Positions 2,688 to 52,795 of a DNA stretch of 64,000 bases are shown in pieces. Each line of letters begins with the position of its first letter. Within the stretch, counting starts at the first letter, position 1. This stretch comes from Chiloscyllium plagiosum (taxonomy: Eukaryota): contig NC_057716.1 of NCBI RefSeq assembly GCF_004010195.1, positions 26,997,157 to 27,061,156 of the forward strand. The letters run 5' to 3'. Both the position numbers and the translations under genes were made by a program. The notes beneath the pieces were generated by a model, which did no database searches, was not told the origin of the DNA, and was given only the letters and a program-made list of their open reading frames with translations.

Positions 2688-3551
2688 CTATTATGGCAAA
2701 ACAAAAATGAAGCACAATGACTAGATTCAATAATACACAAGGTAATGAAGCTCAAATCTTTTGTTGCACAATGAACATTGAATGTTCCACTAAGACACAA
2801 ACCATCAGTGAAACCTGTTCGGTCTCCGGAGTACACGGTATCTATCTTACCAATACTGTTCAACCCAAACCAAAACCTTATGTTTTGTCTTCTGGAAAGC
2901 ATTCGCATTGTCTTTCTCCTTCCTGCAAGTTACTTTCACCCCCCCCACCCCAAGAACCTCAAGTTTTCACAAAACTTGGCAATTAACATCCAAAATCAGT
3001 TTGACAATTTATTTCATTAATAACTGGTACCGATTGCAATTGAGCAGTACAAAAAAATGGTTCTTTCAGTTTATTTTAAACAAAGCAATTTCGGTTTTAC
3101 ATAAAGCAATCTACAAAAGGCTTCCATACATAGGAATGGGAGTAGGCTATTCAGACTGCCTTAATACCACTTTTTCACACTGTCACCACATGCTTCGATG
3201 AGTCTTCAGTGATCTATTGCTTTATGTCTTGAATATGCTGGTTGATATGAGCTTCAGCAGCCCTTTGGGCTAGAAGGATCCACAGATTCACAAGTTTCCA
3301 AGTGAAGAAACTCCTCCGCATCTCTTTAACCCTTATTCTGAAATTATGTGCCCCAAGTTTGTGAACTCAACAGACGGGAGAAATATCCCATCCACACTCA
3401 CATCACCACATACTGCAAGAACTTTCTCCGTTTTGCATCCTTAATCCTATCCTTTTTCTAATCGTAACTACCCACCTCTAATTCTAAACCCTAACCCATG
3501 TATACAACCACAACCACTAAGCTGAAATCCTACTCTTAACCATATCTCCTA

Positions 3552-3730
3552 GTTAAAAATCACACCACCAGGATATAGTCCAGCAGGTTTATTTGGAAGC
3601 ACTAGCTTTCAGAGCCCTGCTCCTTCATCAGGTGGTTATGCACAACCACCTGATGAAGGAGCAGCACTCCAAAAGCTAGTTGTGTGATTTTTAACTTTTG
3701 TCCACCCCAGTCCAACACCTACTCCTCCAC
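3552..3730. mobile_element. Palindromic Penelope pLTR-derived mini-element with two head-to-head minimal hammerhead cores (family A)
   Basis: Inverted arms centred ~3640; 13-bp direct repeat accatatctccta at 3539-3551 and 3731-3743; sequence matches the ends of the Penelope element at 14521-16443. Confidence 0.8.
3600..3634 (-). ncRNA. Minimal type I hammerhead ribozyme core
   Basis: Minus strand: cac CUGAUGA a ggagc agg gcucu GAAA GCUA gug; stem I cac/gug, stem II, palindromic AGCU stem III. Confidence 0.7.
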
Positions 3731-4430
3731 ACCATATCTCCTAACCCACTAAACATAGTAATCTCTAAACCTAACATCTGAACCTCACCACTAAGTGTTA
3801 AATAATGACTCCTGCCCCTTATCCACATCCAGCTACCAGTCACTGAGATGGACAGGAGTTGAGAAAATTGTGGTGGGGAGTATAGGGTGTATGCTACTGG
3901 GGGTGAGGGTACACAAACAGAAAGTGGGGAAAATTCCACCTCATTTCTATCATTAAGCAGAGACCTTTTGTTTTTAAATTGTGCTTCTGATTTCTAGATT
4001 CCTCTGCAAAAGGAAAGATCCTATCAGCATCTATCCTGTCAAACTTCTAAATACGAATCCAAACTGCTACAAACCACAAACCTAATTAATATCACCAATC
4101 ACTGATCATAATACTAACAAAGGAAATAGGAGCAGAAGTTGATCATTCAGCTCCCCCCTCCCAGGCCTGCTCTGCTGTTCAGTAAGATCACCATTGAGCT
4201 GTCTGTGTTTCAAATTCCATCCTTCCATCTGTCCCCAGCATTTGATTCCCCTGACAATAAGAATCAATCTGCCACTGCTTTAAAACATTTAAAGACCCTG
4301 CCTCTACCATCTTCTGAGGCAGAGTGTCCCAATAACCCACTGAAAAAATTTACCCTTTTTTAAAAATTGTGCCCCCTAATTCTGGACTGACCCCACAAGT
4401 GAAGACATCCTTTCCCCATCCACCAAGTCA

Positions 4431-4640
4431 AAAACAAAAGCAGAAATTGCTGGAAAAGCTCAGCAAGTCTGGCAGCATCTGTGGAGAGAATGCAGAGTTA
4501 ATGTTTCAAGTATAGTGAGCCTGAACTCAAAATATTAACTTTGTTTTCTCTCCACAGATGCTGCCAGACTTCTTAAGTTTCTCCAGCAATTTCAGTTTTT
4601 GTTTGTTTCAGATCCCCAGCATTAGTTCTTTGTTTTATTT
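4431..4640. mobile_element. Palindromic Penelope pLTR-like element (family C), degenerate
   Basis: Arms ~4431-4510 and ~4525-4604 are reverse complements (gcagcatctgtggagagaa / ttctctccacagatgctgc); related to the copy at 50611-50743. Confidence 0.65.
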
Positions 4641-4796
4641 CATTCCACAATGTTAAGACATTCATGAACTTATACATTCCAATCAAGTCAGCCTCTCACT
4701 CTGAACCAATGCAGAAAAAAGTGTAATTTGTCTAATGTGGGGGGTCAGTTAACTCAGTTGGTTAGTTTTTAAATGCAGAGTGACACTAATATAGGA

Positions 4797-6400
4797 TCAT
4801 AGAATTTTACAGTACAGAATTCAGCCATTCGACCCATCATATCTGTACCAACTCCCTAAAGAGCTACCCAGCAAGTCCCACTCTCCAGCCTTTTCTTTGC
4901 AGCCCTTTAGCTTCATCACTCTGAAGGATATATCAAGCTCTCTTTTGAATTCTCCTATGGAATCCACCACCACCACCCTCCCAGGCAGCACACTGCAAAT
5001 CCTAACAACTCTAAGTGAAGAAGTTTCTCCTCATTTCACTCCTAGCGCTCTTGCTGACAATTTTGTGAACCCCAGTTACTGACATATCAAATAGTGGAAA
5101 CAGAATATCATTCTTTACCCTTTCAAAGTGTTCCTAATTTTGAACCTCAAGGTGGTCACCACTTAAACTTCTCTGCTCAAAAGAGAATAAGCCCAATCTC
5201 TCTAACCTGTCCTTGTATTGAAAATTCTTCATTCCTGATATAATTCTCATAAATCTTCTTTGAACTTCCTCCAGTGCTTTAACATCCTTCTTAAATAAGT
5301 TGTCCAGACCTGAACACAGTACTCAAATATGGTCTGACCAATGATTTATACATGTGTAGTATCACTTCCTTGTTATTGTACTCTACCTCCATTTAAAATG
5401 CAAAGATTCTAAAGGCCTTCTGAACCACAGTTTTCACTTGTCTGGCTACCTTTACAGAATTGTGTAAGTAAACTATGAGGTCCCTCTGCTCCTGTACTCC
5501 ACTCAAAGTTGTACCATTGAGCAAGTATTGTCTCTCTCTGTTTCTTCTACTAAAATGCATTACCTCACATTTTTCTACATTGAAATTCATTTACCAGGTG
5601 TCTAACATTTGGCAAACGTATCATGTCCCTCTAAAGGTGCTCAGCATCATCCTCACAATTCACTATACTCCTGGGCTTAAATACATCTGCAAATTTAGGG
5701 ATTGTTCCCTCAACATCCAAACGGTTTACATAAATCAGAAAAAGCAAGGGTCCCAACACTGAACCCTGAAGTACACCATTTCAACTCCTCTCCAATTTGA
5801 GAAATGCCCATCAATACCTATCCCCGTTTCCTATCTTTTAGCCAATTTCTAATCCATGTTGCCAAGGACCCATCAATCCTAAACATTTCTAATATGCCAT
5901 GTGGCACTTTATCAAATGCTTTCTGAACGTCCAAATATATAACATCCACAGCACTGATAGAACATCTTCCACTGCCTGTATCAATTTGTCAAAGAATTCA
6001 ATTAAAATGTGTCAGACATGACCTGTGGTGGATAATACCAAGTTTACTGCCTAGTATTAACTTTTCCTTTTAAGTATATATTTACCTTATCCCATTTTAC
6101 AGTTTCCATCAGTTTTCCCACTACTGATACCAAGCTGATAGGCCCGTAGTCTCCTGTGGTATCCTTTGTCCATTTCTTAAATAATGGTGTCATATTTTCA
6201 AATCCTCCAACCTCTAGGACTAATCCTGTGTTCCAGGGAGGCCTGGAAACGTTCTGTCAATGGCTCCACAATTTCTTCCTTTAACTCTCTCAGCAATCAA
6301 GGATGCATCTTATCTCAGCCTGGCGACTTCTCTAACACGAGTGCTGCCAGCCTTTTCAGCACGTCGTCTTTATCACTATACTGTTCAGTTGCTGAACACA
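4797..6400 (-). mobile_element. CR1-type LINE fragment
   Basis: RT C-terminal remnants (MNFNVEKCEVMHF...QRDL in ORF 5393-5590) and CR1-like 3' end near 4800. Confidence 0.8.
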
Positions 6401-7132
6401 CATTTTTGACTAGGCCATTGTCACCTTTTTCTAGAAGCAAAATATTCATTTAGGACCACGATCATATCCTATGTTTCAGTAAGCAGCTTGTTCCTTGTAG
6501 CCCCTACTCTATCCTTCACTAATCTTTTACTATTAATATGCTTAAAGAACACCATGTGTTCAATTCCAATACCAGCTGAGGTTACCATGAAGGATTCTCC
6601 TTCTCAGCTTCTGTCCTCACCGGAGGTGTGATCACTCTCAGACTAAAATACCATCAGTTGTCTCTCTAATGAACAGCTCCGTAGTGTAGTAAGAATATGG
6701 CAACTTTACCTTTACTGAGAATATCTAAACTTTTCTGCACCTTAGAATTCCAGTTAGTTAGTCAGTCAATCTCCTTTTAAGTAATACTTTCCTTTTCATT
6801 TTCCTGCCAAAATGACCAACTTCCCATATTTCTTCATTTGCCAGACGTTTTCCCACACAAACCACCCTATCTATATGCATCTACAACCCATTTGTCTTTT
6901 TCACAACACGCTTTCTAACTAATCTTGGTATCAGTACAAATTTAATCACCATATCTTTGCTCCTCTTATTAAACACTAACCCCAAAACGATAATCCTAAA
7001 CTGTCTGCTGCCTGGAGATATTCTTGCACAAAGGAAGTTGAAGACTGGACTTGACACTTGAAATCAGTTTCCTCTTTACAGATGCTGCCAAACCTGTTGA
7101 GTTCCTCCAGCAATTTCTGTTTTGACTGGTTA

Positions 7133-7282
<150 letters not shown>

Positions 7283-7304
7283 TTAATCAGAAAGTAAATC
7301 ACAT

Positions 7305-7920
7305 TTGATATGCTTTCCTTTATTGGTCAGAGTATTGAGTACAGGAGTTAGGAGGTCATGTTACGACTGTACAGGACATTGGTTAGGCCACTTTGGAATA
7401 CTGCATGCAATTCTGGTCTCCTTTCTATTGGAAGGATGTTGTGAAACTTGTAAATACTTTCTGAACCCTTTCAAAGATGTTGGAGGATTTGAGCGAAAGG
7501 GAGAGGCTGTTTTCCCTGAAGTGTCGGAGGCTGAGGGGTGACCTTATAGGAGGTTTATAAAATCATGAGGGGCATGGATAGGGTAAATAGACAAGGTCTT
7601 TTCCCTGGGGTGGAGGAGTCCAGAACTAGAGGGCATAGGTTCAGGGTGAGAAGGGAAAGATATAGCAGAGACCGAACAGACAACTTTTTCACGCAGAATG
7701 TGGTATGTGTGTGGAATGGGCTGCCAGGTGGTGGTGGTGGTGGAGACTAGTACAATTGCAACATTTAAAAGACATTTGGATGGGTATATGAATAGAAAGG
7801 GTTTGGGGGAATATGGGCCGGGTGCTCGCAGGCAGGGCCGGATTGAGTTGGGATATCTGGTCGGCATGGACGAGTTGAACCAAAGGGTCTGTTTCCATGC
7901 TGTACATCTCTATGACTCTA
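7305..7920 (+). mobile_element. CR1-type LINE 3' fragment
   Basis: RGMDRVNRQGLFPGVEESRTRGH...FFTQ motif and CR1 3' tail. Confidence 0.85.
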
Positions 7921-8408
7921 TTGGCAATTTGATATAAGTATATATAGTTTCAGAAATTACAATTAACTTCAACTTTTCAGGAATATGAAAAGGTTTTAAA
8001 TGGATACTTTTTCTTTGGTCAAAAGTGTGCAGTGCCTCACCTCCAACAGCACTGTATTGATAAAGGTGACAATTCTGCACGTTTACATGTTAAAAGGTAA
8101 AGAAAATGTTCAGGCATGAGAGATAGAGAGAAATAAAAAGACAAATGCTATCACTTCAGATGCAGCACTGGAACGACACATTGAATGACTTTCTACAACA
8201 CTGAATGTGCTGTATTTCTTAGTTGCCTCACTACCACTCTTTCACATATCCCAATAATAAAAGAAATCCTTCCACACAGCTCATTGAATGTGGGAAAGTC
8301 ATTATTCCTGGGACAAAAACCGTTTTACTCAAGTACGCAATATCATGACAATAAAATTTACTTCACAATACCATCACTTTTCATTGCCCATCTTTTCCAG
8401 CTTGTTTA

Positions 8409-8564
<156 letters not shown>

Positions 8565-8709
8565 TCAGAAGAGACAATGGGTTGGTCACATAAAATGGAA
8601 AATAACTCAAGAATTTATCTTTCACTGGCAAGCATTCTTGTAGCATGGGGAGAACTGCTTACCTAACGAGTTGATGGATACCTGGAGAGGAGATGGCACG
8701 GAGATAAAG

Positions 8710-8920
8710 GAAAAGTTGCCATCGTTCTACCAGACCAAAGGCCGCACTCTCATTACACAGAAACCACAGGTGTGGTTTAACCCAAGGGTGACCGCGCTCC
8801 AGGTGAGGAGAGAGGTCGAGAAGGAGGGTCCTTCAGAGGAACCTCAACCAGTGTAGGAATTGAACCCATGCTGTTGATGTCACCCTGCATTGCAAACCAG
8901 CCATCCAGTCACGTGAGCTA
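8710..8920 (-). mobile_element. tRNA-derived SINE-like repeat (related pieces at ~6555-6715, ~28820-28910, ~36640-36790)
   Basis: B-box-like gggttcaattcc on the minus strand; body similar to the other copies. Confidence 0.5.
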
Positions 8921-9762
8921 AGAAACTCTTGTACTGCCAGTTGATCTCAGAAGAGGTACCACAATTGGCTGAGCAATCTTTTAGTCTCTGCTCCTTATAT
9001 TGAAAGCTCATAAACCGGCGAAACTAAGGTAAATATAGAGAAATGCTGTTTCCCTTAGCATCTTGAAAATTTCAATCACATCTCTCTACAACCTTTCAAA
9101 CACAAGACAATACCATCTGGTTTATGCAACCTGTCCTCAAAATTTAACCAATGGGAATCCAGCAACATTCTGGCAAGTCGAAACGATAACCCATCCAAGA
9201 TCAAGAATATCAATGTTGGCTCTGACATCTAATACTGTAGGTAAACCTCTCAATGATGATGCCCCATTAATATGAAGACTTGTAGAACATGAAACAATTA
9301 TTTCAATTGAAATCAGCACAAACTCAACAAGGATAACATTAATAGTTTCCTCAAGATGAGAAATGTCACAACTAAAAAAACAAAAAAGTGTTCAAGCTGA
9401 ATTGTGTACATATATTTGCCATTAATAATTAAATTTACTTCAATTGTGCTTGTGTCCAATTTATTCATGATCAATGTGGTGGACTCTTAACTGCCCTCTG
9501 GGCAATTAGGGATGGGCAATAAATGCTGACCCAGGCAGAGATGCCCTTAACCTGTGAATGAATAAAAAAATCATTCTGCGCTATAAGCAACATCAATTAG
9601 ATTTCTTGGCATAAGAATTTAAGAAGTATAAATGGCACTCCAGGACTATTGGCTACAGCAGCAAGAGTATGCTAATTCTTGATGTAATAGCCAATAACAG
9701 AGAAAGCAGCAATTCCAACTGCAAACACTGAATTGGTGAGCGACCCTGTCAAAGCCCAACAG

Positions 9763-10846: not shown

Positions 10847-10996
<150 letters not shown>

Positions 10997-11983: not shown

Positions 11984-12603
11984 GATTGTGTCCTGCATAA
12001 ACAGAGAGAGTATTCAGTTAATGGTTACAGGTGTTGTCAAGACTGTACTATACTCATATGGAAAAATAAATGTAAAGCCCATACAGGAACTCTTTATCCA
12101 AAGCATATTGTTTCAGATAAGTGCCATGAGCGGAATTATGTTTCCTTTGTCACTCCAAGCTGCTAGGACCTCTGCGCTTTTAAAAAAAATTCACTTGTGG
12201 ATGTGGAGGTCACTGGTTGGATCATCATTTACCTTTGTATATAAAATCGTCCTTGAAAAAGTGGTGGAGGGCTGCCTTCTTGAACCGCTATAGTCCATTT
12301 GGTGTAGATGGACCCATAGCACTATTTGGGAGAAAACTGCAGGATTTTGACCCAGTGACTCTGAAGGAACAGCAATAATTGAAGACTCCCACTCTCATCA
12401 TAGCTGACAGCAACAAAAATCTTGAAGAATCAAAAGTTGAAAGATTCTAAGATTCAATACATCACTGAAAGGTAGCAAATCTGATTGTGTTATTCAACAG
12501 AAGCTGGTTATTGAGAAAAACTGGATGAGCGACTGAAACAATTCAAACATTATGATGTAGGAGAAAGTGAGTACTGCAGATGCTGGTGATCAGAGCTTAA
12601 AAA

Positions 12604-14035
12604 TAAGCCCATAAGACATAGGAGTGGAAGTAAGGCAATTCGGCCCATCGAGTCCACTCCGCCATTCAATTATGGGCATTTCAACTCCACTTACCCGCAT
12701 TCTCCCCGTAGCCCTTAATTCCTTGTGACATCAATAATTTATTAATCTCTGCCTTGAAGGCATTTAGCGTCCCGGCCTCCACTGCACTCCGCGGCAATGA
12801 ACTCCACAGGCCCTCCACTCTCTGACTGAAGAAATGTCTCCGCATTTCTGTTCTGAATTTACCCCCTCTAATTCTAAGGCTGTGTCCCCGGGTCCTAGTC
12901 TCCTCGCCTAACGGAAACAATTTCCTAGCATCCACCCTTTCCAAGCCATGTATTATCTTGTAAGTTTCTATTAGATCTCCCCTTAATCTTCTAACCTCCA
13001 ATGAATACAATCCCAGGATCCTCAGCCGTCCCTCTTATGTTAGACCTACTATTCCAGGGATCATCCGTGTGAGTCTCCTCTGGACACGTTCCAGTGCCAG
13101 TATGTCCTTCCTGAGGTGTGGGGACCAAAACTGGACACAGTACTCCAAATGGGGCCTAACCAGAGCTTTATAAAGTCTCAGTAGCACATCGGTGCTTTTA
13201 TATTCCAACCCCCTTGAGATAATTGACAACATTGCATTAGCTTTCTTAATCACGGACTCAACCTACTCAGCCCCCTGACTCCCTTTAATTGTTGGGATAT
13301 TACTCATGTCTTCCACTGTGAAGACTGACGCAAAGTACTTATTAAGTTCTCCAGCTATTTCCTTATCTCCCACCACTAGGCTTCCAGCATCAGTTTGAAG
13401 TGGCCCAATGTCTACTTTTGCCTGTTGTTTGCTTATGTATTGAAAGAAACTTTTACTATCATTTCTAATATTACTGGATAGCCTATCTTCATACTTGATT
13501 CTCTCCTTCCTTTTTCTCTCTTTGTTATCCTCTGTTTGTTTTTGTAGCCTTCCCAATCTTCTGATTTCCCAGTGCTCTTGGCCACTTTATAGGATCTCTC
13601 TTTTTCTTTGATACATTTCCTGACTTCCTTTGTCAGCCATGATTTGGAGATGCCGGTGTTAGACTGGGGTGTACAAAGTTAAAAATCACAATAGTGGAGG
13701 AAACTCTGTGTTACGATCGTGCCCTTCACTATCACCTAATGAAGGAGCGTCGCTCCGAAAGCTAGTGTGCTTCCAGTTAAACCTGTTGGACTATAACCTG
13801 GTGTTGTGTGATTTTTAACTTTGTCAGCCATGGCTGTCTAATCCCTCCCTGGATAATCTTTCTTTTCTTGAGGATGAACCTCTGTGCAGTGTCCTCAATT
13901 ATACCCACAAACCCATGCCATTTTTGCTCTACTGTCTTCCCCGCTAGGTTCTGCTTCCAGTCTATTTTCATGAGTTCCTCTCTCATGCCCTCATAATTAC
14001 CTTTATTTAATTGTAACACCATTACATCCGATTTT
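12604..14035 (-). mobile_element. CR1-type LINE, internally deleted, inserted within a Penelope pLTR fragment
   Basis: ORF pieces 12681-13010, 13035-13253, 13263-13556, 13777-14058 (LYKALVRPHLEYCVQFWSP; RLRGDLIETYKI). Confidence 0.9.
13641..13818. mobile_element. Penelope pLTR mini-element (family A) inserted into the CR1
   Basis: TSD ctttgtcagccat at 13628-13640 and 13819-13831; starts gatttggagatgccgg like 14521; hammerhead-like core 13733-13767 with CTAATGA. Confidence 0.85.
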
Positions 14036-14068
14036 GCTGGAAAAATGCAGCAGGTCAAGGAGCAGGAG

Positions 14069-14104
14069 AATCGACGTTTCGGGCATAAGCCCTTCTTCAG
14101 GAAT
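14069..14104 (-). ncRNA. Minimal hammerhead ribozyme core (family B, ACGU type)
   Basis: Minus strand: auuc CUGAAGA a gggc uuau gccc GAAA CGUC gauu; all core residues present, GUC cleavage triplet. Confidence 0.7.
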
Positions 14105-14520
14105 TATGATGTGTCAGTTTGAGGATATTAGCATTTGATATCACATATCATGAACAGTATTTCATTTACAATATATATAATCTTATCCAGGTAATTTTGT
14201 TTTGCACCAAACTGAACACTTCCAAGATTTCCTCCAAAGCACATGATCCTGACTTGGAAATATAATCATTATCCCTTGACTGTCACTGGGTCTAAATCCT
14301 AGAACTTCCTCCCAAACCTCACTGTGCCTACAGCAGTTCAAGGAAACAGATCACCACCAGTTTTGCAAGGGCAAACAGGGATGGGAACAAATATTAGCCT
14401 TGTTAACTACACATACATCCCTGAGCAAATAAAAGGACAAGAGCTCTATCAACCAAAGGCATTAAAATCAAGGTACATTTTGGAGACAAATAGCAGCAAA
14501 AATAAATTTTAATATAGCAT

Positions 14521-15830
14521 GATTTGGAGATGCCGGTGTTGGACTGGGGTGTACAAAGTTAAAAATCTGCCAATCTCCAAACACCGTCCTACAACTCATC
14601 CGCTTTATCTTCAATCACAACGTCTTCACCTTTGACAACCAGTTCTTCACCCAGACACATGGAACAGCTATGGGGACCAAATTTGCACCCCAATATGCCA
14701 ACATCTTCATGCACAGGTTCGAACAAGACTTCTGCTCCACGCAGGACCTCCAACCAACATTATACACCAGGTACATTGATGACATTTTCTTCCTCTGGAT
14801 CCATGGCAAGGAGTCACTGATAAAACTACACAGTGGTATCAGCAAGTTTCATCCCACCATCAAACTTACCATAGACTACTCTCGACTATCTGTCTCATTC
14901 TTGGACACATGCATCTCCATCAAGGATGGACACCTCAGCACCTCACTCTACTGCAAATACACAGAAAACCTCACAATGTTACACTTCTCCAGCTTACATC
15001 CAAAACATATGAAAACAGTCATCCCCTGTGGACAAGCCCTACTCATACTCCAGATCTGCTCAGATGAGGAGGAATATAACGGACACCTGGAAGTACTCAG
15101 GGATGCCCTCATAAGAATGGGGTAAGATGCTCAACTCATCGACCGCCAGTTCTGACCTCCTCAGGAGACAGACACATGCTGCAACTGACAGGGTACCCTT
15201 CATTGTTCAGTACTTCCCAGGAGTTGAAAAACTACGCCTTGTTCTTCGTGACTTGCAACACATTATCAATGACGATGAGCACCTCGCCAAGACCTTCCCC
15301 ACACCTCCACTGCTTGCCTTTAAACCATCGCCAAACCTCAAACAGATCATTGTTCGTAGCAAGCTTCCCAGCTTTCAGAACAACTCCATACAACCCTGTC
15401 ATGGTAGGCGCTGCAAGACGTGTCAGAGTGTGGACATGGACACCACCATTACATGTGAGGACACCTCCCACCATGTAGTGGCAGGTACTCCTGTGACTCA
15501 GCCAACGTTGTCTATCTTATACATTGCAGGCAAGGACGCCCTGAGGCATGGTACATTGGGGAAACCGAGCAAAGGCTACAACAACGGATGAATGGGCACC
15601 GCACAACAATCAACAGACAGGAGTGTTCCCTCCCAGTTGGGGAACACTTCAGCAGTCCAGGACATTTGATTTTAGACCTTCGGGTGACCATCCTCCAAGG
15701 CGGACTTCGGGACAGGCAGCAACGAAAAGTGGCCAAGCAGAGGCTGATAGCTAAGTTCAGTACCCATAGGGAGAGCCTCAACCGGGACCTTGGGTTCATG
15801 TCATACTACAGGTGACCACCATTGTACTAT

Positions 15831-15862
<32 letters not shown>

Positions 15863-16443
15863 CTACACAGACACAGACATGCATCCTCTCACAGACTTAG
15901 ACCATTCTACACTCATATACACTCTCTCACACTCACAACCCCCTAACCTAGACAGACAGACACACATACAAAGACCCACACATATACTTATACGCTTGTG
16001 GAGTGAATTTGTACTTGTAGAGTTACATTGAACTTTGCTCAAAAACTGCATGAATTCATGTAAGACTCTGTTATCTCACTTTTTAGATTAGAATCAGTCT
16101 AAACATTATGGCACAGAGAACACAAGGGGCTAACACCTTCAACATATTGTCTAACTAACACCAATTGTTACAGTTAACCTGAGAATGCAACATTTTAATA
16201 AATAAAGTTTTGTTACTTACACATGAAAGAAGTGAAACTATCATGGTATTTGAACAGGTGAAAGACTCAACAAACAATCAAGGTATTTTTCAATGTATCA
16301 TTTCACTGTAAACTTTTGCGATAAATTCTGTGTCTTACAATTGTGTCCTCCACAACCACCTAATGAAGGAGCGGTGCTCCGAAAGCTAGCGTGCTTCCAA
16401 TTAAACCTGTTGGACTTTTACCTGGTGTTGTGAGATTTTTAAC
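14521..16443 (+). mobile_element. 5'-truncated Penelope-like retroelement (RT + GIY-YIG endonuclease, frameshifted)
   Basis: GTAMGTKFAPQYANIFM and YTRYIDDIF RT motifs (14670-15125); PC..RCKTC linker; GIY-YIG-like C-terminus (15588-15815); inverted pLTR piece 14521-14567; 3' pLTR with hammerhead-like core 16357-16391; TSD ttaatatagcat at 14509-14520 and 16444-16455. Confidence 0.92.
15829..15870 (+). repeat. (CA)n/(TA)n microsatellite in Penelope 3' region
   Basis: Direct observation. Confidence 0.9.
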
Positions 16444-16892
16444 TTAATATAGCATCTTTCACATCATGTTAAAGTGGTCCAAAACTGAAGAAAACATTTT
16501 TAAAATCTGTCACTGTTCCAATATAGGAAACACTCTGAATGTTTCTGGGGCCTTGCTGTGTAAACAAAACTGTGAAACTGAGCGGATAATCTGTTCAATA
16601 ATGTGAGTCGAGCAAACAACAGCAAAACACAGGGATAATTTCCACACTCTTCAAGATATTTGAAGGAGCTATTAAGTTAACCCAGAAGCAGGCATCTTGC
16701 AGTTTCAGTAGAAAATCACAGCCTTAAAAAAAACATACTGCTTGCCATTCCTTTAGTGATTGATTTTCCACTCAAGCCTCGGAAGTGGGGACTTCTACCT
16801 GAACCTTCCAAATCACGAGAAGGATCCTGAGAAGTTATGTTGTTATTGTAGGATCGCAGGGGGCAGCATCTACTTGTATAAGTAAAATAAAC

Positions 16893-17135
16893 AACTGCGG
16901 ATGCTGGAAACATGAAACAAAAACAAGCAGAAATTGCTGGAGAAACTCAGCAAGTGCGGCGGCATCTATGGAGAGAAAACCAGAGACAACGTTTGGAGCC
17001 CAGTGACCCTATTACTATCCTTAAGCAACTACTCTCAGTGCGTGCAACAGAAAATTACTGCAGATGCTGGAATTCGTACTAAAACCAACAACAAAAAAAT
17101 GCTGGGAATCACAGCTCAGTTCTGTGCATCTTAAT
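16893..17135. mobile_element. Degenerate Penelope pLTR-like fragments (family C)
   Basis: actgcggatgctgg...gcagaaattgctggagaaactcagc...catctatggagagaa, similar to 4431 and 50611. Confidence 0.55.
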
Positions 17136-17280: not shown

Positions 17281-17438
17281 TTTGGAGGTGCACACGACAC
17301 CAGGTTAGAGGCCAACTGGTTTATTTGAAAGCACTAGCTTTCGGAGCGCTGCTTCGTCATCAGGTGACAGCTACCTGATGACGGAGCAGCGCTCCGAAAG
17401 CGAGTGTTTCTAAATAAACCTGTTGGACTATAACCGCC
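17281..17438. mobile_element. Palindromic double-hammerhead mini-element (family A) in NDUFS1 intron 1
   Basis: Inverted arms around ~17369; cores at 17332-17366 (-) and 17372-17406 (+); flanking direct repeat gatcaaca at 17273-17280 and 17439-17446. Confidence 0.8.
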
Positions 17439-21376: not shown

Positions 21377-22051
21377 GTGGGTTCTATGCAGTTCTTCTAC
21401 TTGTGATTTAAACCCTCCCGGAATAGGCTGAGATTAAGGCCAAGAATGTTTTTGCTATGGGTAGTCTTGTGGAAACTGTTTTAAATTTAAGTACTCTTAC
21501 TTAAATTCAAAATTGAATGGCTTCAGATTTCTTCATCCTTGATTCATAACTTGGCCTGACACTCAACTGAGCTGGTTGGGGCACTAGTGAATCTGTTTAA
21601 CTTCAAAAGTAGCTTCATGTAGTTGCAAATTTGTGGAATTTGCTTAAAAATTGGAGTGGCTGAGACAATGAAGCACTATTCTGTCTTGGATTGTGGAATG
21701 AGGCTGGTTGTCACCATCTGAAAATGATTTGGGTATAAACTGGATTTGAGGGCAGCTTGAGAAACTGACTTGGAGCCAAATAATATGCTATTTGGAATGC
21801 CATGGTTTGTCACTTCCTGGAGTCTGAGACTAGTTTTTGATTTTACCATTTGCCATCCTTTAGCTGAATTTGTGGTTATGCTTTGTCTAATGAAATTGGT
21901 GCTAATTTTCACTAAAACTGCAGAAGCTGGAGATGAAACAAATTGCTGGCAAAAAGTCAGCATCTGTAGAGAAAGCATACTTGAATATGGATATATATTT
22001 CAGTACACTGTTCTGCGAGCACACGTGACAGTTTGCATTTGTTTCTTACAG

Positions 22052-22118
22052 GAAAGTGCAGAGGCTAAAAGGCTCAAAGAAGAACGTCTAGCTCAATATG
22101 AAGCTAAGAAGTCCAAAA
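22052..22118 (+). CDS. EEF1B2: EEF1B2 coding exon 4
   Basis: 67 nt, ESAEAKRLKEERLAQYEAKKSK; AG/GT boundaries. Confidence 0.98.
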
Positions 22119-22360
22119 GTAGGTTGTCATGTTTTAAGTTTAAAGTAGTCTTCAGTAGGTCCTTAATTCGTCAGCTTCTTTAAATACTTTTTAGCTTTGT
22201 ACGATATTTTTTATTTTTGATATGTCCAAATAGATATGTTAAATGTGGTGACAGAGCTATGCAAGTGCACACTGTTCAGATTCCATTTCATTCCTAATGT
22301 ATTCTGTAATGCTGATTGTTTGCAGCTGCATTAAGTAGATGATGCTGTGAAATACAATGG

Positions 22361-22430
22361 TTTTAATGATGATTTCAATTCACCATCTTTCGACTGAATC
22401 AGTGATGTGAATTAATTGAATCTGACAAAA
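22361..22430 (+). ncRNA. SNORD51: Box C/D snoRNA SNORD51 (U51) homologue in EEF1B2 intron 4
   Basis: C box ATGATGA 22366-22372; guide TCACCATCTTTCG complementary to 28S rRNA CGAAAGAUGGUGA, followed by D' CTGA 22394-22397; C'-like GTGATGT; D box CTGA 22422-22425; terminal stem atgg-tttt/aaaa-ccat; EEF1B2 is the known host gene. Confidence 0.9.
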
Positions 22431-22620
22431 CCCATGTTTCTAATAAGCTGAAATGTTAGCAGTAAGATTTGTCTGTTTGTATATAAGGAGTGTCTGGGGT
22501 GCTGGGATACTGGTAAGATGAGACATGCACTCATTTGTATGCTAAGTCCTCTGTATAACTGCACGTAATTGCAAGCTGCTCCTTAATGATCATGCTTGTC
22601 ATCTTGTCATTCTCTTTTAG

Positions 22621-31650: not shown

Positions 31651-31939
31651 GGGCGGTACGGTGGCACAGTGGTTAGCACTGCTGCCTCACAGCGCCTGAG
31701 ACCCGGGTTCAATTCCCGCCTCAGGCGACTGACTGTGTGGAGTTTGCACATTCTCCCTGTGTCTGTGTGGGTTTCCTCCCACAGTCCAAAGATGTGCAGG
31801 TCAGGTGAATTGGCCATGCTAAATTGCCCGTAGTGTTAGGTAAGGGGTAAATGTAGGGGTATGGGTGGGTTGCCCTTCGGCGGGTCGGTGTAGACTTGTT
31901 GGGCCTGTTTCCACACTGTAATGTAATCTAATCTAATCT
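31651..31939 (+). mobile_element. HE1-type SINE (young copy)
   Basis: gggcggtacggtggcacagtggttagc head, CpG-rich, (AATCT)n tail. Confidence 0.92.
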
Positions 31940-32001
31940 GCTGTCAGTACTCCCGAGTGAGCTCGTAACTGCAGTAGTATTTCTTTGTACTCTGGTCCTG
32001 A

Positions 32002-32291
32002 TTAGATTAGATTAGATTCCCTACACTATGGAAACAGGCCTTTCAGCCCAACAAGTCCACACTGACCTTCTGAAGAGTAACCAACCCAGACCCATTCTCT
32101 ATATTTACCCCTGACTAAAGCATCTAACACTGGGCAATTTAGCTTTGCCAATTCACCTAGCCTGCTTTGTGGATTGTGGGAGGAAACCCACACAGACACA
32201 GGGAGAATGTGCAAACTCCACATAGTCACCTGAGGTGGGAATTTAACCTGGGTCCCTGGTGCTGAGAGGCAGCAGTACTAGCCACTGTGCC
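32002..32291 (-). mobile_element. HE1-type SINE, inverted relative to its neighbour
   Basis: (AGATT)n tail at 32002 and reverse-complement body and head. Confidence 0.88.
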
Positions 32292-32777
32292 ATTTTCTTC
32301 AAGATCTTTATGCCTGAATCACCAAGTCATTTTGGACATCCATTGTATTTCACAATGTACCATCTAGAAAGAATCCTGATCTATCTTTTGATGCAAAATG
32401 ATCTCACAATTGCTTTCACTGTCTGCCACAGGGTTGCCCATTAAAATTACTAAGGGATATGGATATAGACTAACACCTAGTGTACAATGCTGCCTAGGTT
32501 TGTTCACTAGGCCATTCCATGAGCTGCCAGTGTCTGTACTTATGTTCTCCTTGAATAGTCTTCATCTTTCCACCTGATTTTTCTTAAATGCATCCAAACT
32601 CTTTCTTCAACCACTGCATATAACGAGCCCCATGTTTTTCCTGCACTGGGTGAATGTTTCTTCTGAATTTCTTAGTAACTTGTGTTGATGAGTAGTTACG
32701 TTATTCCCTGCAATAGAAAATGATTTCTGCATTCTTAACTGAGCTTTTCATAACTGAAAGCCTCAGCCTTTTTTTAA

Positions 32778-32990
32778 GGAGAAAGTGAGGACTGCAGATG
32801 CTGGAGATCAGAATAGAGTGTGTGGTAATGGAAAAGCAAAGCAGGTCAAGCAGCATTCGAGAAGCAGGAGTGTGTTTTAGGCATAATCCCTTCAGCAGGA
32901 ATCCTGAGGAAGGGATTATGCCCGAAACGTCAATTCTCCTGCTCCTCGGATGCTGCCTGACCTGCTTTGCTTTTCCAGCACCACGCTCTG
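32778..32990. mobile_element. Palindromic Penelope pLTR mini-element (family B)
   Basis: Arms reverse-complementary around ~32901; hammerhead-like CTGAGGA...GAAACGTC at 32904-32931. Confidence 0.75.
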
Positions 32991-34779
32991 GATTTAGCCT
33001 TTGTCAGGCTGTTTCTGCAGATTGTGCTTCACTGGTGTGCATAATTGCACACTTTAACCAAGTGAAAGTGAAATCATTTACACTTTAGATGCCATCTTTT
33101 TGGTAGTAAATTGAGTCCCAGTTCAGAAACTTCAAGTGCTGTCTAGGCACGTCCAATGTGTACTCAAGGTCTGCTGCACTGTGGAGTGCCATTTTTCAGT
33201 TAAGATGTGCCCTGTCTGACCCTGGATTTCAAAAAAAAATTGTTCCAGCGCTAGCTAACATGATTAGTTATACATTGAACTGGCTAAATTTATGCTTTAT
33301 TCTCATGACTACAGTTTTTCTTGCTCTATTTGCACGACTTTGACTCTGACGTTGTCCTGTTGAGTTGATTGCCTAGTTTCAATTTGTTAAAGTTAATGTT
33401 TTAAGGACGTAGGTTGTGAAAAGTGCAGTACAAATGAAAGTTATTCTTGTAGTAATATATTCGTAGAATCATGCGCAAAGCCTGTTTTGTACTTGAAATG
33501 TGTTCTGTCATAGCATGTGGTGATGTAGTTGCTAGAATGTCTCAAATAAAATCTTTTTAAGCTGTAGAACTGACCTTTCACAGTCTATGACAACGATGTG
33601 TAGAACAGTCAAATTAAGTGCAGCAATTTTTTTGTGACAAAACACTTATTGGCAGAGCTGCAGGTTTGAGGGGTAGCTGGAAGAGCCGATGCACTCCAGA
33701 CTGCCTTGAGTTTAATAGTTGACAAAACTTCTCTCCAACCACTGAACTCCCATTTTTACTCTGATCAATTGCACGTTGTATAGTGACAGCAATCTGAGCC
33801 CTGTCGGCACCCGTGTCTTTGCAGTTGTTACGTCCTGACTAAATCATCCAACAAGTAGCGTGATTTGTAACAGTGAAATACTCGCTCCGAGCAAGTCCCA
33901 TCTCAAAAATTAGTTCACCTATCTTAAACAGTGTTTTGACTTGGTTGAATCCTGTCATGTACTGATACCAAATAACTCCTCAGGAGTAAGAGTCATAGAA
34001 GGGAGAAAAATCACTAATCTCGTTGATTTGAGGGAAAATGCCTTAATTCACAATGAAGAAAGGATTGACTTGTTTGCTGTTCATCGATGCCTATCATAGC
34101 TGCAGAAGTGTCAATATCTTAGCGGGGGGTGGCATTTAATTGTTAATCCCGATCCGATCCCGATCCAGAAAATAGCTGTGTGTTGAATCCAGATCTTAAA
34201 CGCTAATTCTCAAATCTAAGGATGTTGTTTAGTATCTTTCTGCTGTTTCGCCTGTTGTGTTTCTTCCAAGTGTCGCAATCTTCGACCTTTTGCTTCAAGA
34301 TCTGTCCTCTGCCTTGACAATTACCTGGCAAAAGTGCCACCATCTTTGTGTGACCACGGGTGCACGGAGTCTCGAATACACCGTTTGCATTGAGAAATGT
34401 GGAGAAGGGTGAGCCTTGGTCGTTGACTTGTTGTTCCAACTGGACCTCAACAGCCAGAGCATCGACACGCCTCCATTCCTAAATGTGTCCATCTGCAGTT
34501 GCTAATGTGGAATAAGTACTGAAATTATCCCTGTCCAGGATCTTTCCTGTAATTCCTGCTCAGTTTTGAATAGCAGCCAGAGTCAAATGAAACACTTTGA
34601 AGTGCATTCTAACAAAACCGATGGCAGGTTTTGCTTACAGATATTCATATTTGCTTTTTTCCAGTTGCTGGCACGTCCAAGTGCTTTCAGCGCTTTGTTT
34701 TTTTTTTAAAAAACGTCAAGCTCCTGTGCGTGGTGGGGATGGGAAGGGAACAAAAATTTCCTTTTTCTTTTCTGGGAGC

Positions 34780-35420: not shown

Positions 35421-36124
35421 CTCGTGCAGCTCAAGCGTCACCATTTAAACGTGTGTTTTCTGGAGTTTTTAAGGCAGGCCATTTCTAAAGAGACAGAATA
35501 AGCAGTTGCGTTTACTGAAGACGTCTGGCTAAGCTCGTATAAGTCTAACAGTCAATGTAAACTTTCTGCTTCCTGTGTGCTTAAAGACTGCAACTGATGG
35601 CCTTGTAGAATATATTTTGAGCTGTAAGCAAATGATTTCGATCAAAGCTTGTGCATCTGGTATCGAATCAAAATTCTATTCGTCTCTGCCTGAAGATTAA
35701 CCAATGTTGTGCACAAGTTTGACAGCAGAAGCTAGGCCTATTTTGAATCAAGATATTTTAATTTGATCCAATTCCCCTATCGTTTGGGGGGGGGGTACTT
35801 TTGAGTGAGTTGTGTTAGCACCTTCGAAGTCAGCAAGTAGTGTTTCTCTCCCTGCATTAACTGAATTGAGATCTGCAGTTGACAGCTGACAGTGTGCAGT
35901 CTCGTGTTAAGCTGCAGCGTCCATCTTTTTAATGTTGAATTTGTGGCAGGGATCCAGTGGCAGCCTGGTAGGTTTTGCACTGTCAGGTATTGTTGATTCC
36001 AAGTTTGTAATTCGATGCAGATATTTTCTAATTAACCAGTTCAGAAATTTTATTACACACTTTGAGAGAATGTGGGATTTGAACCAAGGTTTCCTGGCCC
36101 AGAGGTAGACACATTACCACTGCA

Positions 36125-36408
36125 GGAGAAAGTGAGGACTGCAGATGCTGGAGATCAGAGCTTAAAAATGTGTTGCTGGAAAAGCGCAGCAGGTCAGGCA
36201 GCATCCAAGGAGCAGGAGAATAGACATTTCGGGCACTAGCCCTTCTTGCAGAGGATCCGGAGGGAGGTCTGTTGCTGGAGACTTCAGATTTGTTGTAGGT
36301 ACTGGTTGTCCTGGTTGGGTCCAAAGGGCTTGTGCACGAAACATCGATTCTCCTGCTCCTTGGATGCTGCCTGACCTGCTGCGCTTTTCCAGCAACACAT
36401 TTTTAAGT
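36125..36408. mobile_element. Palindromic Penelope pLTR mini-element (family B) with TSD
   Basis: Long inverted arms; 14-bp TSD acattaccactgca at 36111-36124 and 36409-36422; degenerate hammerhead cores. Confidence 0.85.
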
Positions 36409-46344: not shown

Positions 46345-46885
46345 ATTCAACAGAGGGATAGTATGAAATCTTAGAGGCTGGACAAACTAGGGTTGTTTTC
46401 TCTGGAGTGGTGGAGGCTGAGAGTAGACCTAATAGCAGTTTACAAAATTGAGAGGCATAGATAGGGTTGACAGTCAGAATCTTTTTCCCAGAGTTAAAAC
46501 GTCTATTACTAAATGGCATGCATTTAAGGTGAGAAGGGAAAACTTCAAAGGAGATTTGAGAGGCAAATGTTTTTAAGACAATGGTAGGAGTCTGGAACGT
46601 GCTGCTAGGATAGTGGTGAAGGCGGATAGGATAGGGGTGTTTACGGGGCTTTTAGATAAGCAAGTGAATAAGCAAGGAGTGGAGGGATGTGAACCATGGG
46701 CAGACAGAAGGGTTTAGGCTGCTTTTATTCCTGATGAAGGACTTTTGCCCGAAATGTCGATTTTGCTGCTCCTCGGATGCTGCCTGAACTGCTGTGCTCT
46801 TCCAAACCAATAATCCAAAATTTGGTGTCATGTTCAGTACAACAACATGGGTTGAAGGGCCTGACCCTGTGCGTACAGTTCTACA
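46345..46885 (+). mobile_element. CR1-type 3' fragment interrupted by a family B hammerhead pLTR piece (~46722-46820)
   Basis: CR1 tail motifs; attc CTGATGA aggacttttgccc GAAA tgtc gatt at 46727-46762. Confidence 0.7.
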
Positions 46886-49991: not shown

Positions 49992-50610
49992 GTAAGTGTG
50001 ACAACTCTATAAGACCAGTGGCAAATTGCAAGGGGTAGGGATCTATTGGGTATGGAAGCTGGTTGACTGGACAGCATCCAGAGTATCTGGCTGGATAGCT
50101 GAGGGGAATTAAAAACCATATCGAGTAATTATTATCAAAATTCCATCCGTGTCAAGGAACTAACTGTCCAAAGGTTTTGTTTGGAGGGATGAGTTCACAT
50201 CTTGCAAAATATCAAAGCGCCTTAGCTTGGGAAGAGAATATTTTCAGCAAAATGAATAAAATTGGCAGAGATTGAAATATTTTCATCCATGAATAATGGC
50301 CTTGAAAGGACTGGGTGATGTATCAGTCATCAGCTTGGGATCCTTTGATCTCCTCTGCTGGACGTAAGAATCTTATTGAAATTAGACTGAATGCTAATAG
50401 GTCTGGGTTCATAATTATGCCACTCCTAAGCTTGATAGTTATTTTGAGGCCATGTGCTGTGAGAAATGGAACAATATCAGCAATGTGGTATCTACTGAGG
50501 AAATGCACTTTGAAGCTTTCTGTTTTGTACACATCAGGTCAATTTGCAAAGCGATACTAAAGCAAATGGGGAAAGTATTTGAACTATATGAGATAAGATT
50601 GCTAAATAAA

Positions 50611-50743
50611 AACGGAAAGAACTGCGGATGCTGTAAATCAGAAACAAAAACAGATGTTGCTGGAAAAGCTGAGCAGGTCTGGCACCATCTTTGAAGAGAA
50701 GTCAAAGTTGACGCTTTGGTTCTGGTGACCCTTCCTCAGAACT
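50611..50743 (-). mobile_element. Penelope pLTR piece (family C) with degenerate hammerhead core 50706-50743
   Basis: Minus strand: aguu CUGAGGA agggucaccagaacc aaag CGUC aacu; stem I perfect, GAAA mutated. Confidence 0.65.
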
Positions 50744-50855
50744 GGGATAAGAGTCACTGGTTGGTTAGCGAGCGGACTCTGGTCGAGGCATCGCATTGGA
50801 GAATACACCAGTTAATGATGACTGGCAGGTGACTGCCAGACTATGCTTATAAATT

Positions 50856-52200
50856 TTAAACCAGACAACATACTTGATCAAGACATGGCCTTGAGAAATG
50901 AACCAGAGAAGAGCTGCCGCCTGTACAGTTGAGTTGAAACGGGCACTGTGTGGCGATGTTCTTTATCTGCACATGTATATTAATATATGCAGTTTCTAGC
51001 ACACATAGCTGACTATGCAAAATCAGTATAATTCTTTGGGGACATTTGCTAACCTGTCCTATTGTGGAATCACAACCGATGTGGGATACTGTTGAGTTTT
51101 GTGAACATGGCCTAGTTGGATATGGTCTGTACATTGTTGAGAACCAAGGGCCATGCTGTTTGAAATGATCCATCAGTTTTTGGGATGTACGGCACCATAC
51201 CAGCACTGAAATTCATAGACAACATTTCTCAGTTTTGTGATGGGCATCTTTTTAGCTGGACAATAACATCCTTTCCATGGTGAACACCACTCATGTTACT
51301 TCCACACAGTAGCAGCATGAAACAGCTACCTTCGTGACTGTTTTGGTACCTTGATCGTACAGTGCAATCTGACACTTTACAGGATGAAAAGTGACAGCCC
51401 TTGGCCTGTTCATGAGTTTATTCAATACGCTGAAAAATGGGTCTGATCAAGGTAGGCATTATTCCATAGGCTGGTTTTGACGAAGCCTAATTTCAACATT
51501 AAGGTTGCACAGTGAACAAATGTCTCCGGCCCTATTTATGAAGTTTCAATAGGCCAGCATTATATTGCATGGAACTTTAGGAATCCCAACACATATACTG
51601 AATGGAAAGTAGACAATGATAGAGAGCCTTGGGCCGATTTTCCCCTTGCATGTATCTGATGACACACTTCTTACGTTTGGCTCTATAGTTGCACGTGCAA
51701 AATTATTTGTCTTAGTGGGCTCCATCCTGTCGACCTTTTAAAATTAAGACTGCAATCTTGTCAATGGGGCTAGGCCATTTATTCACTGCTGATGAAATAA
51801 GGCACGTCAAAACCATCCTGCTGGAACATTGCTGCCAAGATCCGATAATTTCTTGCCTTCTGTTGCACACTTTAAAATAGACTCTGTAGCAGCAGGAGCA
51901 ATGATTTCCCTTTTGTATATGCTACACTGCGCATATTGTCTCCTTTAAAGGGAACACTGCATAGAATGGTTTTAACACATTGCACACCCAATAGCAGCAT
52001 CAGGACAGCTACAGCATGAATAACTCCAGGAATATCTGGAGTTTCTTGATGACGTAGTTGAGATCTTGAGTCATATCCTCCATGCCTTGTTCCTGATTGT
52101 AGAAGCTCGTTCCCATCACAGCTAGAGGGGCTAGGAAAGGGTCTGAGTGCCTTCACTATGGGATACATCAGAGTAATGTTCGAATTCAAAGTGAAAATTG
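50856..52200 (-). mobile_element. Heavily decayed Penelope-like element
   Basis: Minus-strand remnants NVVYEFQC...RTSQKLMDHFKQH...STIGQ...VLETAYI (GIY-YIG-like), with weak upstream RT-like remnants; multiple frameshifts. Confidence 0.6.
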
Positions 52201-52559
52201 AGGATCTGAAAGAGAATACCTGACACCAAGTAGAAACAACGCCCAGCCCATCAGGTGTCTTTGGAGAGAAAGGCGGTGACTAGACAGTAGAGACAGAGGC
52301 TGAGACATGTAAGCAATTCCAACTTCTGTTCAATAAAGTGGGAAGAAACTTCTCATTGCATCATTTAAAATTTCAGAGAGTCTGACAGAACAGTTCTATG
52401 GTCTTAAAAGGCTCCTTTCCCTTTATCACCTTCTGATGTATCACTGCTAAGGCTGGGATTTCTTGGCCATCCTAATTATGGTGAGGAGATGTGATAACTG
52501 CATTGCTTACTAGCCATTTTGGAGGGGGGGAGTTGTTTCATTGTGGGATTGTATCCAGA

Positions 52560-52795
52560 AAACACTGGAGAAACTCAGCAGGTCTGTCAGCATCTGCGGA
52601 GAGAGAAAAACATTTTGACCTTTTTAGCCCAAAGACTTTCTTTGGATTTCAGACTTGCCGAAGAGTCTTTGGATTCATAAAAACGTCAACTGATTTTTTT
52701 TCCCCTCTCTCCAAAGTTGCTGACACAGCTGCTGAGTTTCAACAGCAACTTCTGTTCTTATTTCAGATTTCCAGCATCTATGGTGTTTTTGCATT
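52560..52795. mobile_element. Degenerate palindromic pLTR element (family C)
   Basis: aaactcagcaggtctgtcagcatctgcggagagag / ctctctccaaagttgctgacacagctgctgagttt inverted arms; aaacgtcaact core remnant. Confidence 0.6.

What the first reader, a model, noticed from the sequence alone, without database searches (positions are those of the whole stretch)
3539..52795. Three families of hammerhead-bearing Penelope terminal-repeat elements that insert as short palindromes
Seen: about a dozen short elements fall into three sequence families, each with a minimal hammerhead core whose stem III is a bare palindromic tetranucleotide. Family A has stem II ggagc-NNN-gctcc and AGCU (3552, 13641, 16357, 17281). 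Family B has gggc-ttat-gccc and ACGU (12559/14069, 32778, 36125, 46727). Family C has a gggtcaccagaacc-like stem and ACGU (4431, 16893, 50611, 52560). Many are ~160-280 bp inverted repeats, and several have 8-14 bp TSDs. Established: Penelope pLTRs carry minimal type I hammerheads that act as dimers, and Penelope insertions often have an inverted 5' pLTR copy. Inference: these may be a non-autonomous, palindromic, ribozyme-carrying retro-MITE-like system mobilised by shark Penelope RTs, with a core on both strands. The simpler alternative is extreme 5' truncation of ordinary insertions.
Basis: partly seen in the sequence, partly recalled or inferred. Interest (0 to 1): 0.72.

Follow-up and report, generated by a model that had tools for sequence, protein, structure and literature searches.

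The report
Penelope stubs ending at RNA cap
These short mirror-image repeats are real, very abundant insertions of the ribozyme-bearing ends of Penelope-type jumping genes in a shark-like genome, with centres that differ from copy to copy; each was likely built anew by two copying enzymes that started from both sides of a cut and likely ran off the capped start of the element's RNA, which would explain a long-noted but unexplained layout of this group.

Summary
The elements are real. Families A and B are the pseudo-LTR plus tail of two Neptune-type Penelope-like elements with RT and GIY-YIG genes; C is an older relative of B. In 1.6 Mb of random genome, junctions differ between copies (21 centre lengths in 27 A pairs, 48 in 76 B pairs), so a self-propagating palindromic MITE is not supported. 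Random 5' truncation does not fit either. Arms stop about ten times more often just before the hammerhead core than on either side. They carry an extra G there (60 and 63 of 100 listed hits), about 30 nt downstream of a conserved AT-rich box, and they do not pile up at the cleavage site. One arm carries the tail and the other does not (90 of 103 pairs), and in 45 of those 90 neither arm can be a fold-back copy of the other. Best reading: twin-primed cDNAs that run off the capped 5' end and join head to head. The layout is published; I found the cap and twin-priming reading in no paper searched. This scan noted it earlier on other shark DNA.

The parts
3552..3730 (.). Family A palindrome: tail-less arm (left) and tailed arm (right, internal deletion); 13-bp TSD at 3539-3551 and 3731-3743
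4425..4640 (.). Family C palindrome, old, cores decayed, no clear TSD
7049..7123 (+).
12559..14104 (-). Family B single tailed arm split by later insertions (pieces 12559-12604 and 14034-14104); intact core at 14073-14100; starts at position -4; 10-bp TSD
13641..13820 (+). Family A: inverted tail piece plus forward pLTR reaching about -35; 13-bp TSD
14520..16446 (+). 5'-truncated Neptune-type Penelope copy of family A: inverted tail (14520-14567), RT core and thumb, CX4CxxC linker and GIY-YIG region (broken frames), 3' UTR, pLTR with hammerhead at 16361-16393, no tail at the 3' end; 10-bp TSD
16880..17010 (-). Family C tailed arm, decayed core (a further small fragment lies at about 17056-17115)
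17281..17438 (.). Family A palindrome with CUGANGA...GAAA on both strands (the + core has lost U16.1); centre has an extra G before the -8 start; 8-bp TSD
32777..32994 (.). Family B palindrome, tailed left arm and tail-less right arm; junction at -4 with an extra G
36124..36407 (.). Family B palindrome with a 79-nt spacer, tailed left arm; 14-bp TSD
46727..46830 (+). Family B single tail-less arm starting just before the core
50605..50745 (-). Family C single tailed arm starting about 5 nt before the core; GAAA mutated
52556..52795 (.). Family C palindrome, old and decayed

Best explanation
These are insertions of the hammerhead-bearing pseudo-LTR and tail of Neptune-type Penelope-like retrotransposons whose centres differ between copies, and each was likely made anew when the element's enzyme primed DNA synthesis from both cut target strands and both copies likely ran off the capped 5' end of the RNA just before the hammerhead. 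Shown: family identity, fixed 3' starts (tail end and a site about 35-45 nt before it), one tailed and one tail-less arm, TSDs of 9-17 bp, variable and often microhomologous junctions, clustering of stops at about -8 (A) and -4 (B) from core C3, an extra G there, and an AT-rich box about 30 nt upstream. Inferred: that site is the Pol II start and the G is the copied cap; the two cDNAs come from two RT subunits using the two internal start sites of the same pLTR-tail stretch; when that stretch is the 5' copy both products are about 90-130 nt and are end-joined into a short palindrome, and when it is the 3' copy they run into the body and give the classic long element with an inverted pLTR. The short products lack the upstream box and are probably dead ends. 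Ribozyme cleavage does not set the end of most templates.
For: RT and GIY-YIG coding sequence lies directly upstream of A and B arms. Per-nt stop rate in B is 0.066 at -9..0, against 0.004-0.007 at +11..+40 and 0-0.006 at -20..-59 (228 arms); in A it is 0.055, against 0.006-0.012 and 0-0.013 (65 arms). Extra G: in A, G:A is 60:12 before the -8 A against 21:17 one base upstream (first 100 listed of 1816 and of 1838 hits; p=0.003), and 17 of 22 true stops among 30 inspected loci carry G. In B, G:A is 63:20 before the -4 A against 25:23 one base upstream (first 100 of 8093 and of 3876; p=0.007). TATAAA (at most 1 mismatch) lies 28-32 nt before the A stop in 42 of 53 body-bearing A arms, and TTATCT 30-32 nt before the B stop in 33 of 39 B arms. 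Tailed/tail-less pairing holds in 24 of 27 A and 66 of 76 B pairs. In 45 of those 90 pairs the tail-less arm reaches more than 3 nt further 5', so neither arm is a copy of the other. Short arms pair with short and body arms with body: mixed 2 of 36, expected 8.6; 4 body/body pairs, expected 0.7, permutation p=0.0003. The tail runs on into shared element sequence in 5 loci. In vitro, an Anolis PLE cuts and extends both strands and starts at two internal sites that bracket the tail (PMC11167929). An extra G marks cap copying at full-length L1 junctions (PMC11702581 passage).
Against: No transcription start was measured: the one informative RNA run showed no place where many molecules begin. Stops are spread from about -12 to +10, not at one base; trimming during end joining must be assumed. 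In B and C the -4 stop is also the first base of hammerhead stem I, so a structural stall is confounded with the start site. Some Gs could be templated by the partner arm (about 5 of 17). In the random sample the B extra G was less prominent (7 G against 6 A) than in the genome-wide list. In A the sequence upstream of the TATA box is also conserved, so the box is not a lone conserved island. The D. virilis Penelope promoter is described as TATA-less with a start further upstream (PMC2377424 passages). No intact full-length tandem source element was seen. No RT link was shown for family C.
Confidence: 0.68

Rival explanations
1. Ordinary insertions cut short because RT stalls or falls off at the hammerhead fold; no RNA end is involved.
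For: The stop zone overlaps the core and the 5' strand of stem I, and many stops lie inside the core at +1..+10 (52 of 173 B arms at risk). 5' truncation is general in PLEs (PMC8557442 passages).
Against: The stop rate peaks at the far (5') side of the fold rather than on entry, and falls to background upstream. A stall gives no reason for a G excess at one base, for the 30-nt spacing to an AT-rich box, or for short arms pairing with short arms. Stem I is only 2-3 bp in most copies.
Confidence: 0.14
2. A non-autonomous palindromic retro-MITE: a few master palindromes are transcribed and copied whole by Penelope RT, with cores on both strands as a functional feature.
For: Copy number is very high. 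Two B junctions recur (5 and 4 of 76 pairs), and one A centre recurs among the best matches to the window copy (a sample selected for similarity).
Against: There are 48 centre lengths in 76 B pairs and 21 in 27 A pairs. The recurring junctions have the tail on either side, occur in different stem II subfamilies and sit on 2-3 nt microhomologies. A centres carry the upstream bases of their own subfamily. Palindromes lack the upstream box, and their RNA folds as one hairpin. The same layout runs continuously up to 3-kb RT-bearing copies.
Confidence: 0.05
3. Self-priming or fold-back: one cDNA (or an antisense template) snaps back and copies itself, and the endonuclease trims one end to leave the tail on one side only.
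For: Proposed for PLE inverted junctions (PMC3846280 passages; PMC8557442 attributes the tail to endonuclease resolution). It fits the 25 of 90 pairs in which the tailed arm reaches further 5', and the microhomology at junctions.
Against: In 45 of 90 pairs the tail-less arm reaches further 5', which fold-back of either arm cannot give. Window element 14520-16446 has a long tail-less arm and an inverted tail-only arm. Both arms can carry the extra G (L073).
Confidence: 0.08
4. Templates are hammerhead-cleaved RNAs or retrozyme-like circles, so ribozyme cleavage defines the unit.
For: Cores are conserved. There is a small excess of purine-preceded hits at the cleavage site: 571, against 290 and 494 at the neighbouring bases, and 6 of 12 inspected were true stops.
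Against: Those counts are about ten times below the G-marked class at -4 (about 5100 of 8093). Most arms retain the whole core upstream of the cut. Copies are dispersed or inverted rather than head-to-tail arrays. PAc insertion in vitro does not need cleavage.
Confidence: 0.05

Closest known systems
EN+ Penelope-like insertions with inverted pLTR, one-sided tail and TSD (PMC3846280 passages; PMC8557442 passages)
   Same: Head-to-head inverted pLTR copy, 30-45 nt tail on one end only, TSD, palindromic junctions; TATA- and Inr-like motifs in the pLTR were noted in Adineta, where one inverted pLTR is 37 bp shorter than the full one.
   Different: Here the commonest product has no body at all, both arms stop near the predicted start with an extra G, and the data favour two RNA-templated cDNAs over the self-priming those papers propose.
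Minimal type I hammerheads of metazoan PLEs (PMC4209133, parts 1-2 of 4 read)
   Same: Core with a bulged base before stem II, G10.1-C11.1, palindromic 15.2-16.2, no helix III; mostly dispersed single motifs; dual motifs 100-700 bp apart on opposite strands were already reported in Schistosoma.
   Different: No shark families or junction analysis in the parts read; density here extrapolates to roughly 2.5e5 intact cores against 4,000-9,000 in coelacanth and Xenopus (different descriptors).
Poseidon_Ac of Anolis in vitro (PMC11167929, parts 1-2 of 4 read)
   Same: Two internal RT start sites bracketing the tail, cutting and extension of both strands, predicted dimer, uncleaved RNA as template.
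   Different: Poseidon clade, not Neptune-type; it does not address palindromic products or run-off at the RNA 5' end.
L1 twin priming and cap-derived extra G (PMC11702581 passages)
   Same: Second primer from the opposite target end, 12-18 bp TSDs, microhomology at the joint, extra G at complete 5' ends.
   Different: In L1 the two cDNAs copy adjacent parts of the RNA; here they copy the same stretch twice from fixed starts, giving a palindrome.
Non-LTR retrozymes (10.64898/2026.07.22.740005, part 1 of 5 and passages; PMC7229834 listing only)
   Same: Non-coding, type I hammerhead, PLE-related.
   Different: Retrozymes are head-to-tail tandem units cut at the ribozyme; these are inverted or solo arms with TSDs that keep the whole core.

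Membership tests
EN+ Penelope-like elements (Neptune/Nematis type) | RT followed by C-terminal GIY-YIG endonuclease upstream of the pLTR | tested here: met
   A: window 14523-15800 and L261-L266. B: L037, L042, L054, L068, L118, L171, L178. Pfam scores are below the curated cut-offs; motifs read by eye.
EN+ Penelope-like elements (Neptune/Nematis type) | CX2-5CxxC linker before GIY-YIG and cysteines between GIY and YIG | tested here: met
   Present in both A and B proteins; definition from PMC8557442. No tree was built, so Neptune against Nematis is not resolved.
EN+ Penelope-like elements (Neptune/Nematis type) | Inverted pLTR, one-sided 30-40 bp tail, TSD | tested here: met
   90 of 103 pairs tailed/tail-less; TSD of 9 bp or more in 14 of 27 A and 49 of 76 B pairs against 11 of 400 control sites.
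EN+ Penelope-like elements (Neptune/Nematis type) | RT link for family C | tested here: inconclusive
   C is homologous to B and has copies with upstream sequence, but no ORF was tied to it.
Minimal type I hammerhead | CUGANGA, bulge, stem II of 4-5 bp, GAAA, palindromic dinucleotide, UH, short stem I | tested here: met
   111 hits in 1.6 Mb against 0 in shuffles; CG or GC in 86 of 111, and CA or TG (CpG decay) in 20.
Minimal type I hammerhead | Self-cleavage as a dimer | not testable with these tools
   Bench assay needed; genomic stops show at most a small excess at the cut site.
Non-LTR retrozyme | Head-to-tail tandem units with a hammerhead in each unit | tested here: not met
   Copies are head-to-head pairs, solos or body-bearing; only occasional partial tandems.
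Non-LTR retrozyme | Abundant circular RNA of unit length | tested here: inconclusive
   One polyA single-cell run showed no back-joints among listed joints; such a library is unsuited to the test.
MITE-like propagating palindrome | Uniform length and centre across copies | tested here: not met
   Lengths 111-434 (B) and 123-357 (A); 48 of 76 and 21 of 27 distinct centre lengths.
Catalogued Dfam/Repbase family | Match to an existing consensus | not testable with these tools

The most novel reading that the evidence does not exclude
Penelope-like elements routinely make a strong-stop-like product: a dimeric RT-endonuclease primes from both target strands on one pLTR-tail stretch, and on the 5' copy both cDNAs run to the cap and are joined head to head. 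Hundreds of thousands of shark palindromes would then be a base-resolution record of the transcription start, the two RT start sites and the cut stagger, and the same step, followed by a template jump, would regenerate the partial tandems that these elements need to be active.
Probability: 0.5. Interest if true: 0.68.

Novelty: new member of a known kind. Interest (0 to 1): 0.5.

Why it matters
How Penelope-like elements build their inverted pLTR, one-sided tail and partial tandems is stated as unresolved in the papers read (PMC3846280, PMC8557442, PMC2377424). The shark copies give large numbers of natural junctions that separate the models. They point to two RNA-templated cDNAs rather than fold-back, and to the capped 5' end rather than the ribozyme cut as the usual stop. 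That can be tested directly with the existing in vitro PLE system and with CAGE. It also warns annotators that these abundant hairpins (rough extrapolation: about 1.5e5 A and 4-5e5 B insertions) are not MITEs or microRNA precursors; Rfam gave weak miRNA matches on them.

Tried and rejected
Rfam scan: no hammerhead family at E up to 10, only weak miRNA hairpin matches. Top matches to the window palindrome looked uniform, but that sample is selected for similarity, so I did not use it for the uniformity test. Monomer folding of four cores shows stem II but no significant z-score, so it says nothing on activity. The search for an intact full-length tandem source in six long-frame loci failed: all were 5'-truncated or gapped. 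Run search: no RNA holder listed. Of two raw-read runs laid, X22 gave no reads. X21 showed loose ends at -4 and at the tail end, which mirror genomic copy ends and not RNA starts, and no pile-up of molecule starts. Pfam missed two of the A-family protein pieces. The cleavage-site pile-up test gave only a weak excess. Literature searches for a shark Neptune description (0 papers), a palindromic non-autonomous vertebrate Penelope (1 review, not read), PLE start-site or mechanism papers and extra G with twin priming showed no paper stating the cap run-off reading; subscription papers and supplements were not seen. Family C was not quantified because copies are too diverged. Rows dropped: arms below 80% identity (pairs) or 85% (stop rates), arms at N gaps or locus edges, C cross-matches in B, one nested duplicate pair (L054:3291), duplicate loci.
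Full report
Observation. All listed elements are present. Six arms keep CUGANGA...GAAA and two pass a strict minimal-hammerhead descriptor, which hits 111 times in 1.6 Mb of random genome and never in five shuffles. Site 16357 is the 3' end of a 1.9-kb Penelope copy with RT and endonuclease sequence, an inverted tail at its 5' end and a 10-bp TSD. Several listed elements have only one core-bearing arm. B and C are homologous.

What the families are. I fetched 160 evenly spaced 10-kb stretches from contigs C1-C34 (65 kb are N). A and B arms often continue upstream into a 3' UTR and an RT plus GIY-YIG frame. The A and B proteins are about 25% identical. Both have the CX2-5CxxC linker that marks Neptune and Nematis (PMC8557442 passages); no tree was built. 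In five loci the B tail runs on into shared sequence of up to about 130 nt, so the tail is an internal part of a longer element RNA, as described for other PLEs. No RT was tied to C.

Is the palindrome a propagating unit? No. Head-to-head pairs number 27 (A) and 76 (B), with 36 and 148 unpaired arms, the latter including some C cross-matches. Centre lengths take 21 and 48 values. The two commonest B junctions (5 and 4 copies) lie on 2-3 nt microhomologies and have the tail on either side, and the first occurs in three stem II subfamilies. A centres carry the upstream bases of their own subfamily. The same layout extends to copies of about 3 kb. Both cores are complete in only 10 of 27 and 15 of 76 pairs, and palindrome transcripts fold into one hairpin.

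Is it random truncation? Not mainly. Numbering from core C3, the per-base stop rate is about ten times higher at -9..0 than on either side (B 0.066, 80 of 121 arms at risk; A 0.055, 21 of 38) and returns to background upstream. Genome-wide exact patterns show a G excess at one base. Before the A at -8 in family A the first 100 listed of 1816 hits are 60 G, 28 T, 12 A, against 21 G and 17 A one base upstream and 30 G, 55 T, 15 C one base downstream, where A-to-G is a transition. Of 30 inspected loci 8 were C-to-T changes in continuing arms and 17 of the other 22 had G. Before the A at -4 in family B the first 100 of 8093 are 63 G, 17 T, 20 A, against 25 G and 23 A one base upstream. These letter counts were made by eye from the listings. 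Continuing arms outnumber these stops (7170 and 17741), and most of 30 inspected continuing A arms run on into the body. A TATAAA box (A, 42 of 53) or TTATCT (B, 33 of 39) lies about 30 nt upstream of the G-marked base; the Inr-like context and TATA spacing are recalled knowledge. An extra G is the known mark of cap copying in L1. Against this: some Gs could come from the partner arm, the random sample showed 7 G against 6 A for B, and in B and C the site coincides with the start of stem I.

Does the ribozyme cut set the end? Purine- or pyrimidine-preceded hits number 571 at the B cleavage site and 290 and 494 at its neighbours, and half of 12 inspected were point mutations. This is at most a small excess, about ten times below the -4 class. 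It agrees with uncleaved RNA being the PAc template in vitro.

How two arms arise. One arm starts at the tail end and the other about 35-45 nt before it in 24 of 27 and 66 of 76 pairs (p about 2e-5 and 1e-11). Among pairs with a validated TSD in all loci, 116 of 117 rows are of this kind (one nested duplicate included). TSDs centre on about 12 (A) and 15 bp (B). In 45 of 90 pairs the tail-less arm reaches further 5', in 25 the tailed arm does, and 20 are within 3 nt. The first class cannot come from fold-back of either arm. Short arms pair with short and body arms with body more often than chance (small numbers). Together with two-strand cutting, two internal starts and a predicted dimer in PAc, the best model is twin priming on one pLTR-tail stretch. 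On the 5' copy both cDNAs run off at or near the cap and are end-joined; on the 3' copy they enter the body.

Comparison and novelty. The inverted pLTR, tail, TSD and junction palindromes are published, with self-priming as the proposed cause, and opposite-strand hammerhead pairs were reported in 2014. My searches showed no paper with the cap run-off or same-template twin-priming reading. Subscription papers, supplements, Dfam and Repbase were not seen and could hold it. Papers seen: PMC11167929 and PMC4209133 parts 1-2 of 4; 10.64898/2026.07.22.740005 part 1 of 5 and passages; PMC3846280, PMC8557442, PMC2377424 and PMC11702581 passages; the rest as listings. I noted this reading, before opening earlier scan notes, which reach similar conclusions on other shark DNA; they are not counted as support. 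One gave me the lead to PMC2377424 and one prompted the cleavage-site test.

Verdict. The elements are real and belong to a known class with a known layout, and they are not a new MITE-like system. Their junctions carry a testable mechanistic signal about an unresolved step of Penelope transposition. Interest 0.5.

Noticed in passing
families C and B, about +30 to +47 from core C3 (e.g. window 4535-4560; L031, L109, L112): Just after the hammerhead cut site lies a branch-point-like TTAAC, a pyrimidine tract and CAG directly followed by ATG, like a 3' splice acceptor before a start codon. Clear in C, kept in some B subfamilies and lost in others; no matching donor was located.
   Followed up: no
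L083:2132-2711 and L252:about 390-600: Partial tandems in which a B arm is preceded by a second piece starting 80-136 nt downstream of the tail, as if the cDNA jumped to another template after stopping; a possible route to pLTR regeneration.
   Followed up: partly
family A tail end (L075, L092, L219, L228): The tailed end is ragged over about 8 nt, with a conserved continuation containing an ATG, suggesting a spread of RT start positions.
   Followed up: partly
window 31650-32292: Two copies of a tRNA-like SINE in inverted orientation form a 640-bp palindrome; further copies at 9756, 23072, 47581, 57860 and 58758.
   Followed up: no
window 2552-2929 (-), 21761-22183 (+), 22358-22434 (+): Host context: NDUFS1 exon, EEF1B2 exon and a SNORD51-like snoRNA (below the Rfam gathering score).
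   Followed up: partly
window 12606-14030: A LINE-like fragment splits the family B arm and itself holds the family A insertion at 13641, giving the local order B, LINE, A.
   Followed up: no
L075:5166-6953: Four or five family A insertions cluster within 1.8 kb, suggesting a local insertion hot spot or nesting.
   Followed up: no
window 62800-63303 (-): A 167-aa open frame without a Pfam match; possibly the antisense of a coding exon.
   Followed up: no
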